DNA from: Escherichia coli
Lineage (GTDB): Bacteria; Pseudomonadota; Gammaproteobacteria; Enterobacterales; Enterobacteriaceae
Assembly (NCBI RefSeq): GCF_003334255.1
Contig: NZ_QOWU01000236.1
Length of the DNA: 458 bases
Strand: one strand, 5' to 3'
This document shows positions 1 through 458 of the stretch, in pieces (position 1 is the stretch's first letter; each line of letters starts with the position of its first letter). The notes beneath the pieces are model-generated. The model searched no databases. It worked only from the letters and a program-made list of their open reading frames with translations, and was not told the origin of the DNA. Made by a program: the position numbers and the translations under genes.

Positions 1-458
1 CTTCCCAGCTGGCTGTCAGGTTTTGGTGTACCAAACGGCATGTTCTCCTGGTAAATCTGCGCCCCCATGAAGTTTTCGTTCATGGCAAGATTCGCAAACG
101 GACGCAGAATTGTCGGTGCTGCATTTTTCAGCAATGCCCCGGACAGCGTTTCCGACGTCTCACTGCCAATCGGGCTGAATGCCCCCAGGATACCACCGAC
201 AACATTACCGGCAGCACGGGACGCCGTCAGGTCACCAGCAGCCACACCTTCAGAGGTATGCCCGAGCAGGAAGAAAACGTTGTACCCGTAAGGCAGAGGA
301 ATACTCCAGTACTCTCCGGCCCTGCCCCCGAACATCGATTTCATAATGACGAGGTTACGCTCTTTCACATGATACGGCACCTTGTCGTACCAGTTAACCC
401 CGTCATCATCCTCACCCGCCACACTGCGGTTAAGCGAGCCAAGCAGATAACCCGCTCC
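1..458 (-). CDS. Internal fragment of a protein-coding gene (5' and 3' ends both outside the window); hypothetical protein of unassigned function
   Basis: Reverse-complement translation from + position 458 gives 152 sense codons with no stop (codons occupy + 458..3, plus 2 nt of the next codon at + 2..1): GAGYLLGSLNRSVAGEDDDGVNWYDKVPYHVKERNLVIMKSMFGGRAGEYWSIPLPYGYNVFFLLGHTSEGVAAGDLTASRAAGNVVGGILGAFSPIGSETSETLSGALLKNAAPTILRPFANLAMNENFMGAQIYQENMPFGTPKPDSQLG. Third positions are mostly C/G/T with few A-ending codons, and common enterobacterial codons dominate (CTG, GCG, CCG, AAC, GAC, GGT, TTC, TAC). Amino-acid composition is balanced and protein-like. The other two minus frames stop within about 30 codons (TGA and TAA), and + frames 1 and 2 contain several stops. 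The in-register + frame 3 is open but uses rare codons (CGG, CGA, AGG, AGA, ATA) and encodes a Cys/Arg/His-rich peptide, as expected of an antisense strand. No internal ATG has a convincing Shine-Dalgarno, so the true start is probably beyond + position 458. Function was not assigned because no search could be run. Confidence 0.8.

What the first reader, a model, noticed from the sequence alone, without database searches (positions are those of the whole stretch)
117..263. Gly/Ala/Ser/Thr-rich small-residue segment with GxxxG-type spacing in the encoded protein
Minus-strand codons 66-114 encode GHTSEGVAAGDLTASRAAGNVVGGILGAFSPIGSETSETLSGALLKNAAP. This stretch is dominated by small residues and includes G-x-x-x-G spacing (GNVVG, GGILG). 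Such segments occur in flexible linkers, in helix-helix packing (glycine-zipper) motifs of membrane-inserting or channel-forming proteins, and in extended structural proteins such as phage tape-measure or ejection proteins. The sequence alone cannot tell which applies. Its GC-rich Gly/Ala codons also explain why the antisense + ORF 67..291 stays open across the same interval.
Basis: partly seen in the sequence, partly recalled or inferred. Interest (0 to 1): 0.35.

Follow-up and report, generated by a model that had tools for sequence, protein, structure and literature searches.

The report
Small-residue helical hairpin inside phage LPD38 domain
The glycine/alanine-rich stretch is an ordinary, conserved, folded piece of the already catalogued LPD38 domain at the end of a giant virion protein of Shiga-toxin phages; its GxxxG spacing is a chance feature of this lineage, not a conserved glycine zipper.

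Summary
The window is 100% identical to an E. coli O104:H4 prophage and to phage PhiR5_2. Its minus strand lies inside a 2783-aa gene annotated "LPD38 domain-containing protein". That protein is 90% identical to phi24B gp47, a virion protein proposed to be an ejection protein. The flagged stretch is residues 2510-2559, inside Pfam LPD38 (PF18857, residues 2466-2671).

The composition claim holds. The stretch is 56% G/A/S/T against 30% for the whole protein, the richest 50-aa window of 2734. Homologs share the bias (mean 45% against 28%).

The GxxxG claim does not hold up. Three GxxxG occur no more often than in shuffles (P=0.12). Their glycines are poorly conserved (G2515 7-9%, G2528 26-28%, G2532 8-11%), and 81 of 145 homologs have no GxxxG in the segment. 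The conserved positions are G2510, G2519, the motif G-[S/A]-F-S-P-[I/L/V]-G (2536-2542), S2546 and P2559.

AlphaFold2 (pLDDT 83.7) predicts helix, turn, helix, conserved loop, helix. Coevolution ties the segment to the rest of the domain. Hydropathy is far below transmembrane level.

So it is a core structural element of LPD38, not a linker or a membrane zipper. LPD38's own function is still unknown. A glycine zipper that is enriched across the family sits near residue 410, outside the window.

The parts
3..458 (-). Internal fragment (residues 2445-2596) of the 2783-aa giant virion protein WP_000331660.1, annotated 'LPD38 domain-containing protein'
   Evidence: The frame is open across the window. 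The window is 100% identical to NZ_CP027394.1 and lies inside the CDS at L001 9439-17790 (-). Substitutions against related phages are dominated by third codon positions.
15..395 (-). Part of the Pfam LPD38 (PF18857) match that falls in the window (residues 2466-2592; the full domain is 2466-2671)
   Evidence: Window peptide: E=1.7e-27, model positions 2-112 of 189. Longer fragment: E=4.7e-46, model positions 2-189 of 189.
114..263 (-). The flagged small-residue-rich segment, residues 2510-2559 (50 aa; the finding's 117-263 plus codon 115)
   Evidence: 56% G/A/S/T, the top window of the protein. The bias is shared by homologs: mean 0.447 against 0.280 for the rest of the domain, and 98.6% of homologs have segment > rest.
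240..281 (-). Predicted amphipathic helix 1 (residues 2504-2517, NVFFLLGHTSEGVA) with near-invariant N2504, F2506 and G2510, and conserved E2514
   Evidence: AF2 helix 125-138; the two pLDDT blocks covering it average 82 and 91. G2510 is Gly in 96-97% of homologs and E2514 is Glu in 64%. Hydrophobic moment 1.46. Coevolving pairs: 2476-2511 (z=10.2), 2455-2514 and 2474-2514 (z=5.0).
225..239 (-). Turn between the two helices (residues 2518-2522) with G2519
   Evidence: Non-helical in the AF2 model. G2519 is Gly in 72% and small in 89-94% of homologs.
177..224 (-). Predicted helix 2 (residues 2523-2538, ASRAAGNVVGGILGAF). It carries the GNVVG and GGILG motifs of this lineage. The family-wide stripe is small/apolar: A2526/A2527, L/V2530, [A/S/G]2533, [S/A]2537, F2538.
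   Evidence: AF2 helix 144-159. Position 2533 is small in 86-99% of homologs but Gly in only 8%; 2537 is small in 97-99%. G2528 is Gly in 26-28% and G2532 in 8-11%. Pair 2508-2530 coevolves (z=5.5), consistent with the hairpin.
165..185 (-). Most conserved motif of the segment: G-[S/A]-F-S-P-[I/L/V]-G (residues 2536-2542)
   Evidence: G2536 75-84%, F2538 95-98%, P2540 100%, G2542 77-84% among 145 and 216 homologs.
120..146 (-). Predicted short helix 3 (residues 2549-2557) with conserved K2555, followed by P2559 (window 114-116), which is invariant in the 145-homolog set and present in 215 of 216 in the larger set
   Evidence: AF2 helix 170-178, with lower confidence (block-mean pLDDT of 65-74 over the two blocks covering it). 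K2555 75% and P2559 about 100%. Coevolving pairs 2555-2572 and 2554-2566.
67..291 (+). Antisense ORF of 74 aa; incidental, not a gene
   Evidence: Listed mechanically. A stop codon interrupts it in L002 and L004, while the minus-frame protein is conserved.

Best explanation
The segment is a core structural element of the LPD38 domain (Pfam PF18857). LPD38 sits near the C-terminus of a 2783-aa virion-packaged polyvalent protein of 933W/phi24B-like Stx podophages.

The segment is predicted to fold as an antiparallel helix-turn-helix hairpin (residues 2504-2517 and 2523-2538). A conserved Gly/Pro loop follows (G-[S/A]-F-S-P-[I/L/V]-G, residues 2536-2542), then a short helix.

Inference: the small residues are there because the helices pack closely against each other and against the rest of the domain, and because the turns need Gly and Pro. 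The family keeps 'small' at a few positions (2510, 2519, 2533, 2536, 2537, 2542, 2546) but not Gly at i/i+4. The three GxxxG in this phage lineage are therefore a local accident of an unusually Gly-rich variant.

The segment is not a linker, not a transmembrane glycine zipper and not a tape measure.

Further inference, not shown: LPD38 plus the helical bundle after it is the one module shared by giant phage proteins whose N-terminal parts differ widely. I think it most likely serves virion incorporation and/or ejection of the protein rather than a host-directed enzymatic activity.
For: Identity and annotation:
- 100% DNA match to annotated genes.
- Pfam LPD38 E=4.7e-46 over the full model.
- PHROG 616 over the full length.
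- 90% identity to phi24B vb_24B_48/gp47, a virion protein by proteomics.

Family size and position:
- 5603 cluster representatives match at E<=1e-3.
- In the full-length proteins among the 150 best hits (up to about 4900 aa) the match ends a few tens of residues before the C-terminus; 133 of the hits leave a 40-90 aa tail.

Conservation:
- Conserved: G2510 96-97%, F2538 95-98%, P2540 100%, P2559 about 100%, G2519/G2536/G2542 72-84%.
- Not conserved: the GxxxG glycines, at 7-28%.
- The small-residue bias is family-wide.

Structure:
- AF2 with 45 homologs gives pLDDT 83.7 and pTM 0.72, with a helix-turn-helix-loop-helix over the segment.
- BFVD models of the last fragments of other phage polyvalent proteins superpose with TMq 0.54-0.84 in most significant matches, down to about 14% identity.
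- Mean-field DCA (Meff 169) recovers the predicted beta-hairpin contacts (for example 2480-2499 and 2475-2496). It links the segment to the rest of the domain through 2476-2511, 2508-2530, 2455-2514, 2527-2589, 2527-2600, 2544-2567 and 2555-2572.

Not membrane-like:
- KD19 maximum 0.98, and summed dGapp +7.6 (homolog minimum +4.4).
- Only LPD38, and no glycine-zipper family, hit the window peptide in Pfam.

Functional inference:
- An LPD38 protein of phage PTXU04 is needed for efficient infection.
- In Stx, Vibrio and Burkholderia phages the giant gene closes the run of same-strand genes that, where annotated, encode virion proteins. It follows a 420-530 aa protein, which is annotated as a virion structural protein in BcepIL02.
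Against: - I had no atomic coordinates. Burial and the actual helix-helix contacts of the small residues are inferred from secondary structure, amphipathicity and a low-depth DCA. They were not measured.
- Block-mean pLDDT falls to 65-74 over residues 2540-2559.
- The packaging/ejection role of LPD38 is untested.
- The strongly conserved EDDDG, KERN and NEN polar motifs nearby could point to catalysis or metal binding instead.
- The segment's best 19-mer is the second least unfavourable for membrane insertion in the whole protein, so a latent membrane activity is not excluded.
Confidence: 0.78

Rival explanations
1. Latent membrane-active element. The small-residue hairpin, together with the uniformly apolar helix just upstream (residues 2439-2453), would be a buried hydrophobic core. 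After ejection it would refold and insert into the host inner membrane, as the buried hairpins of colicin or Bcl-2-type pore formers do. That would help form the DNA conduit.
For: - The three least unfavourable 19-mers for membrane insertion in the whole 2783-aa protein are 2439-2457, 2521-2539 and 405-423.
- Helix 2439-2453 is apolar on all faces (family mean KD about 1.9, hydrophobic moment 0.53) and is flanked by conserved QK and NR.
- The protein is proposed to form or contribute to a transperiplasmic conduit.
- Ejection proteins are known to change conformation (review PMC8954989, listed; I did not read it in detail).
Against: - Absolute hydrophobicity is far from insertion level: +6.2 and +7.6 kcal/mol. 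Only 1 of 145 homologs reaches <=1 for the upstream helix and none does for the segment.
- Conserved charged residues sit inside the hairpin helices.
- The family-wide enriched glycine zipper lies in the N-terminal region, not here.
Confidence: 0.1
2. Classical glycine zipper. Helix 2523-2538 would use G2528/G2532/G2536 (GxxxGxxxG) to pack helices in a membrane-inserted oligomer or channel.
For: The query has GNVVGGILG, a three-glycine zipper, in a predicted helix.
Against: - G2528 is Gly in 26-28% of homologs and G2532 in 8-11% (Leu is commonest there).
- The GNVVG and GGILG pairs occur in 3 and 9 of 145 homologs.
- A shuffle of the segment gives a GxxxGxxxG 15.5% of the time.
- Only LPD38 hit the window peptide in Pfam; no Gly-zipper family did.
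- The stretch is not hydrophobic enough.
- None of 108 full-length homologs has a four-glycine zipper in the C-terminal 450 aa.
Confidence: 0.04
3. Flexible low-complexity linker between folded domains of the polyvalent protein.
For: - The composition is biased to G/A/S/T and entropy is lowish (3.49 bits, rank 102 of 2734 windows).
- Block-mean pLDDT is only 65-74 across 2540-2559.
Against: - The segment lies in the middle of a Pfam domain.
- It aligns almost without gaps across 145-216 homologs and has an invariant and a near-invariant proline plus F2538.
- It is predicted helical, with block-mean pLDDT of 83-91 over most of the hairpin.
- It has coevolving long-range partners.
Confidence: 0.03
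4. The + strand ORF 67..291 (74 aa) is a real overlapping gene, and the composition reflects dual coding.
For: - The ORF exists with an ATG start.
- One old GenBank record (AP004402) annotates a different antisense ORF in this region.
Against: - A stop interrupts the ORF in two related phages.
- Substitutions follow the minus-frame codon pattern.
- RefSeq annotates nothing there.
Confidence: 0.01

Closest known systems
LPD38 (Pfam PF18857, 'Large polyvalent protein associated domain 38'; Iyer et al. 2017, PMC5512222)
   Same: - The segment lies inside a full-length, highly significant LPD38 match.
- The domain is in a phage polyvalent protein together with LPD5, LPD1 and MuF-C.
[quoted passage not shown]
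   Different: Nothing differs at family level. This lineage is only the most Gly/Ala-rich variant of the segment (0.56, equal to the family maximum). The family's function is undescribed.
phi24B gp47 / 933W L0134 / PHROG 616: the giant virion protein of Stx-converting podophages (Sepvirinae)
   Same: - 90% identical over the full length to phi24B vb_24B_48, and the LPD38 region (residues 2400-2720) is 96-97.5% identical to 933W and other Stx phages.
- Same domain set as reported for gp47.
- Same gene order.
   Different: It is an allele carried by an O104:H4 prophage and by phage PhiR5_2. The ejection role is proposed rather than demonstrated, and gp47 was not seen in the cryo-EM maps.
Bcep22/BcepIL02 'DarB-like antirestriction' giant proteins (PHROG 10089) and PTXU04_00025
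   Same: - They share the C-terminal LPD38 module.
- In BcepIL02 the gene sits at the end of the virion gene block.
- The PTXU04 protein is required for efficient infection.
   Different: - The N-terminal effector domains are different (lytic transglycosylase, methylase, helicase in JC1).
- Only about 24% identity in LPD38.
Glycine-zipper membrane motifs (Pfam Gly-zipper_YMGG, Gly-zipper_OmpA)
   Same: GxxxGxxxG occurs in a predicted helix of the query.
   Different: - The segment motif is not conserved, not hydrophobic enough, and draws no profile hit there.
- The only, and non-significant, Gly-zipper hits in this protein are at residues 406-433 (E about 1).
- That N-terminal region is where homologs show real enrichment: 31 observed against 4.8 expected.

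Membership tests
LPD38 (PF18857) | Significant match to the Pfam profile over most of its length | tested here: met
   E=4.7e-46, model positions 2-189 of 189, residues 2466-2671. The window alone gives E=1.7e-27.
LPD38 (PF18857) | Occurs in large multidomain (polyvalent) proteins of phages, alongside other LPD or effector domains | tested here: met
   The 2783-aa protein has LPD5, LPD1 and MuF_C and lies in a prophage or Stx phage. Iyer 2017 states that LPD38 is phage-type only.
LPD38 (PF18857) | Conserved sequence signature of the family across the flagged segment | tested here: met
   The query has the family-conserved G2510, G2519, G2536, F2538, P2540, G2542, S2546, K2555 and P2559.
Podophage ejection (internal virion) proteins | Physically present in purified virions | not testable with these tools
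   Taken from the literature for the 90%-identical orthologue phi24B gp47 (proteomics). Not tested for this allele.
Podophage ejection (internal virion) proteins | Released with the DNA and forming or contributing to a trans-envelope conduit | not testable with these tools
   Only proposed in the phi24B preprint. gp47 is absent from the maps.
Glycine-zipper helix-packing motif (membrane) | (G/A/S)xxxGxxxG pattern conserved among homologs | tested here: not met
   GNVVG occurs in 3/145 homologs and GGILG in 9/145. 81/145 have no GxxxG in the segment. Gly frequency is 7-28% at the motif positions.
Glycine-zipper helix-packing motif (membrane) | Motif embedded in a helix hydrophobic enough to span or insert into a membrane | tested here: not met
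   KD19 maximum 0.98. Summed Hessa dGapp +7.6, homolog minimum +4.4. These are crude scales; TMHMM and DeepTMHMM were not available.
Glycine-zipper helix-packing motif (membrane) | Match to a Pfam glycine-zipper profile | tested here: not met
   The window peptide matched only LPD38.
Phage tape measure protein | Encoded by a long-tailed phage in the tail module; long, mostly helical protein that sets tail length | tested here: not met
   The host phages are short-tailed Sepvirinae. The gene carries LPD5, LPD1, MuF_C and LPD38, with no tape-measure family hit.
Flexible interdomain linker | Poorly conserved, indel-rich, predicted disordered | tested here: not met
   Near gap-free alignment with an invariant and a near-invariant proline. 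Predicted helices with block-mean pLDDT of 65-91 across the segment. Coevolving contacts.

The most novel reading that the evidence does not exclude
LPD38 together with the C-terminal helical bundle may be the universal 'handle' of the giant polyvalent proteins found in podophages with genomes of roughly 56-66 kb (Stx, GP4-like Ralstonia, Bcep22-like, Vibrio). In this reading the all-apolar helix 2439-2453 and the small-residue hairpin 2504-2538 form a buried core that refolds after ejection and inserts into the inner membrane. This would be a soluble-to-membrane switch of a fold with no solved relative.
Probability: 0.1. Interest if true: 0.6.

Novelty: already known. Interest (0 to 1): 0.12.

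Why it matters
As a finding it matters little. The gene is already annotated, the domain is already in Pfam, and the eye-catching GxxxG spacing is lineage-specific chance.

The context is of moderate interest:
- LPD38 is a very large family (5603 cluster representatives at 50% identity) with no known function and no solved structural relative.
- It is attached to giant proteins that are packaged in Shiga-toxin phage virions.
- In one other phage, an LPD38 protein is needed for efficient infection.

Knowing which residues of the domain are actually conserved (G2510, F2538, P2540, P2559, and the EDDDG, KERN and NEN motifs) gives concrete targets for anyone who wants to test how these giant proteins enter and leave the capsid.

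Tried and rejected
- PDB sequence searches with the single protein and with the profile found nothing relevant.
- Foldseek against the PDB found nothing at E<=1e-3.
- NCBIfam gave only a sub-threshold CLCA_X hit at residues 1171-1426, far from the segment.
- The first mean-field DCA run was dominated by gap artefacts and I discarded it. The rerun on low-gap columns with a zero-sum gauge gave usable pairs, but Meff is only 169, so individual pairs are suggestive only.
- The supplementary files of Iyer 2017, which should describe LPD38, are not held.
- I did not use the second AlphaFold job, because the tool returns no coordinates. A larger model would not have shown burial.
- I considered and rejected these readings, for the reasons given in the rival explanations and membership tests: tape measure, flexible linker, transmembrane glycine zipper, and a real antisense gene.

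Full report
**1. What the window is**

The 458-base window is 100% identical to a prophage of E. coli O104:H4 and other strains, and to Escherichia phage PhiR5_2. It is 92-96% identical to 185 other Stx-converting phage records (933W, VT2-Sakai, P13374, Stx2-86, Shigella phage 75/02 Stx and others).

In RefSeq it lies inside an 8352-nt minus-strand CDS, WP_000331660.1, annotated "LPD38 domain-containing protein" (2783 aa). Window codon 1 of minus frame 1 is residue 2445. The flagged stretch is residues 2510-2558/9.

The minus frame is the coding frame. Against four related phages, 15-28 of 20-34 substitutions fall on its third codon position, and the few amino-acid changes are conservative.

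**2. Check of the observation**

The quoted peptide is correct. It has 50 residues, whereas 117-263 holds 49 codons; the last Pro is codon 115 (window 114-116).

The small-residue bias is real:
- 28/50 G/A/S/T (56%) against 29.9% for the protein.
- Binomial P = 1e-4 for one window.
- It ties for the richest 50-aa window of 2734.

The GxxxG spacing is not beyond chance. Three GxxxG are observed against 1.35 expected in shuffles of the same residues (P = 0.12). A GxxxGxxxG arises in 15.5% of shuffles.

The + ORF 67..291 exists, but a stop interrupts it in two related phages. It is a by-product of the composition of the sense strand.

**3. The protein and its family**

Pfam finds these domains:

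| Domain | Residues | E-value |
|---|---|---|
| LPD5 | 1047-1190 | 1.2e-43 |
| LPD1 | 1351-1430 | 8e-23 |
| MuF_C | 1740-1829 | 9.7e-18 |
| LPD38 | 2466-2671 | 4.7e-46 (whole model) |

PHROG 616 covers the whole length. PHROG 10089 ("DarB-like antirestriction") matches the LPD38 region.

The protein is 90% identical over its full length to phi24B vb_24B_48. That is the roughly 2800-aa protein called gp47 in a 2026 preprint. The preprint found it abundant in purified virions by proteomics and absent from the cryo-EM maps, and proposed it as an encapsidated ejection protein.

Iyer et al. 2017 defined LPD38 and state two things. [quoted passage not shown] The functions of the LPD domains remain elusive, and LPD38 is not among those they flag as likely enzymes.

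A CRISPRi study found that an LPD38-only annotated 2198-aa protein of phage PTXU04 is critical for efficient infection.

**4. Homologs and conservation**

A search of residues 2400-2720 against 1.84 billion cluster representatives found 5603 proteins at E<=1e-3 and 961 at E<=1e-30. Of the best 150, about 108 are full-length proteins of at least 1800 aa (up to about 4900 aa) in which the match ends a few tens of residues before the C-terminus; 133 of the hits leave a 40-90 aa tail after the match.

I aligned 145 of them (36-73% identity) and then 216 non-redundant homologs (26-73% identity).

| Position | Conservation |
|---|---|
| G2510 | Gly 96-97% |
| G2519 | Gly 72% |
| position 2533 | small 86-99%, but Gly only 8% |
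| G2536 | Gly 75-84% |
| position 2537 | S/A 97-99% |
| F2538 | 95-98% |
| P2540 | 100% |
| G2542 | Gly 77-84% |
| S2546 | Ser about 80% |
| K2555 | Lys about 65-75% |
| P2559 | about 100% |
| G2515 (GxxxG glycine) | Gly 7-9% |
| G2528 (GxxxG glycine) | Gly 26-28% |
| G2532 (GxxxG glycine) | Gly 8-11% |

The GNVVG pair occurs in 3 of 145 homologs and GGILG in 9 of 145. 81 of 145 have no GxxxG in the segment at all.

The small-residue bias itself is a family trait: mean 0.447 in the segment against 0.280 in the rest of the domain, with segment > rest in 98.6% of homologs. This phage lineage sits at the extreme (0.56, the family maximum).

**5. Predicted structure**

AlphaFold2 on residues 2380-2783 with 45 homologs gave mean pLDDT 83.7 and pTM 0.72. 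Over the segment it predicts:
- helix 2504-2517;
- a turn at G2519;
- helix 2523-2538;
- a loop, SPIGSETSET, that begins with the invariant P2540;
- helix 2549-2557;
- after P2559, helix 2560-2570.

Block-mean pLDDT is 83-91 over most of the hairpin, falling to 71 at the end of helix 2 and to 65-74 from the loop onward.

On family-averaged hydropathy the two hairpin helices are amphipathic (moments 1.46 and 0.95). They contain conserved polar residues (E2514, D/E2525, N/D2529).

No window of the segment approaches transmembrane hydrophobicity. The Kyte-Doolittle 19-aa maximum is 0.98. The summed Hessa dGapp is +7.6 kcal/mol, and never below +4.4 in 145 homologs. These are crude scales; TMHMM-type predictors were not available.

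A mean-field DCA on 189 near-gap-free sequences (Meff 169) recovered the predicted beta-hairpin, which shows it carries signal (2480-2499, 2475-2496, 2471-2494, 2484-2495). Among its top pairs are:
- 2476-2511 (z = 10.2);
- 2508-2530 (helix 1 to helix 2, z = 5.5);
- 2455-2514 and 2474-2514 (conserved Arg/Glu);
- 2527-2589 and 2527-2600;
- 2544-2567;
- 2555-2572.

The segment is therefore woven into a compact domain. I could not obtain coordinates, so burial of the small residues is inferred, not measured.

**6. Comparison with known structures**

- PDB sequence searches found nothing.
- Foldseek against the PDB found nothing at E<=1e-3.
- Against BFVD, the model matches the last fragments of many large phage proteins at E down to 3e-29, with TMq of 0.54-0.84 in most of them and identity down to about 14%. 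These include proteins that also carry LT_GEWL, RelA/SpoT or methylase domains, phage PTXU04, and Ralstonia phage Alix.

So the C-terminal module of about 400 aa is a conserved fold of phage polyvalent proteins with no solved relative.

**7. Context**

tblastn of the module finds it in Stx phages, about 100 Vibrio phages, Ralstonia, Burkholderia (Bcep22-like) and a Bacteroides phage. All listed records are 56-66 kb.

In Stx phages, Vibrio phage D56 and BcepIL02, the giant gene is the last of a run of same-strand genes that, where annotated, encode virion proteins. It follows a 420-530 aa protein, which is annotated as a virion structural protein in BcepIL02.

**8. Interpretation**

Shown:
- The segment is part of LPD38.
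- It carries the family's conserved Gly, Pro and Phe positions.
- Its GxxxG spacing is not conserved.
- It is not hydrophobic enough to be a transmembrane helix.

Predicted: it forms a helix-turn-helix hairpin plus a conserved loop.

Inferred: the small residues serve close helix packing and turns in a compact domain.

More loosely inferred: LPD38 plus the terminal helical bundle is the only module common to proteins with very different N-terminal cargo, and it always sits at the C-terminus. So it probably serves encapsidation and/or ejection. From my own memory, and not checked here, there is a parallel in phage N4, where the C-terminal domain of the virion RNA polymerase is needed for encapsidation.

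An enzymatic or metal-binding role cannot be excluded. EDDDG (2460-2464), KERN (2476-2479) and NEN (2571-2573) are 73-99% conserved.

A latent membrane-active role also cannot be excluded. The segment and the all-apolar helix 2439-2453 are the two most membrane-compatible 19-mers of the whole protein, though both are far from the threshold.

**9. By-product**

The protein does contain a much better glycine zipper, but it is at residues 406-425 (IEGAALGAAMGAPFGAAAGY; G409/413/417/421), outside the window.

Among 108 full-length homologs:
- 31 have GxxxGxxxGxxxG within the first 600 residues, against 4.8 expected from shuffles.
- The rest of the protein shows 6 against 7.4 expected.
- None has one in the C-terminal 450 residues.

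If a glycine zipper matters for these ejection proteins, it is that one.

**10. Verdict**

This is an ordinary, conserved internal piece of a catalogued domain in an annotated gene. The composition is real and the motif is chance. Novelty: already known. Interest: low.

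Noticed in passing
L001 16516-16575 (minus strand), residues 406-425 of the same protein; outside the window: There is a true glycine zipper here: IEGAALGAAMGAPFGAAAGY, with G409/413/417/421. Of 108 full-length homologs, 31 have GxxxGxxxGxxxG in their first 600 aa against 4.8 expected from shuffles. There is no enrichment elsewhere, and none in the C-terminal 450 aa. The only Pfam Gly-zipper hits are weak (E about 1). This is a candidate membrane-active element of these ejection proteins.
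   Followed up: partly
window 417-458 (residues 2445-2458), continuing to L001 10476 (residue 2439): AF2 predicts one long helix (2435-2458, block-mean pLDDT of 84-94). Its 15-residue core, 2439-2453, is apolar on every face (family mean KD about 1.9, hydrophobic moment 0.53) and rich in small residues at i, i+4, i+7 and i+11. Conserved Q2437-K2438 and N2454-R2455 flank it. It is the most membrane-compatible 19-mer of the whole protein but still scores +6.2 kcal/mol. It may be a buried core helix or a latent membrane element; this is unresolved.
   Followed up: partly
window 399-413 (residues 2460-2464), window 354-365 (KERN, 2476-2479), window 75-83 (NEN, 2571-2573): Polar motifs are strongly conserved: E-D-D-D-G (D2461 97%, D2463 99%, G2464 85%), K-E-R-N (75-97%) and N-E-N (80-98%). 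The acidic loop resembles a DxDxDG-type cation-binding loop, going by my own memory. Iyer 2017 did not list LPD38 among the likely enzymatic LPDs.
   Followed up: no
L001 9439-17790; residues 1274-1278 and 1541-1545: The protein has two HExxH motifs: HEWFH at 1274, inside a sub-threshold NCBIfam CLCA_X match at 1171-1426, and HEIIH at 1541. The phi24B preprint attributes metallopeptidase activity to the MuF-C domain. Iyer 2017 describes MuF-C as a PBECR, RNase-like domain. If there is a zincin-like peptidase, it more likely lies at these HExxH sites.
   Followed up: no
L003 258-458 (+), AP004402.1 26448-26711: An old GenBank record annotates an antisense 'ORF-30c' hypothetical protein overlapping the giant gene in this very region. 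phi24B likewise annotates several antisense ORFs inside the giant gene. These look like over-annotation of open antisense frames.
   Followed up: no
phage records; L001, L006, L007, L008: Every listed phage record with an LPD38 match is 56-66 kb (Stx, Vibrio, Ralstonia, Burkholderia, Bacteroides phages). In the three phage groups I inspected, the giant gene is the last of a run of same-strand genes that, where annotated, encode virion proteins, and it follows a 420-530 aa protein. This suggests linkage of LPD38 proteins to one virion type; the preprint links phi24B and GP4 tails.
   Followed up: partly
residues 2380-2410, L001 about 10561-10653 (upstream of the Pfam LPD38 boundary, outside the window): Conservation extends well N-terminal of the Pfam LPD38 model. 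[LM]TVNFNR.GE and YMFANASIQGT contain several invariant residues (T2, N4, F5, G9, F21, N23, A24, Q27 and G28 of alignment A1). AF2 confidence there is low (block-mean pLDDT of 40-59 over the first 30 residues). PHROG 14770 aligns from residue 1834. The conserved C-terminal module is therefore larger than the Pfam domain.
   Followed up: no
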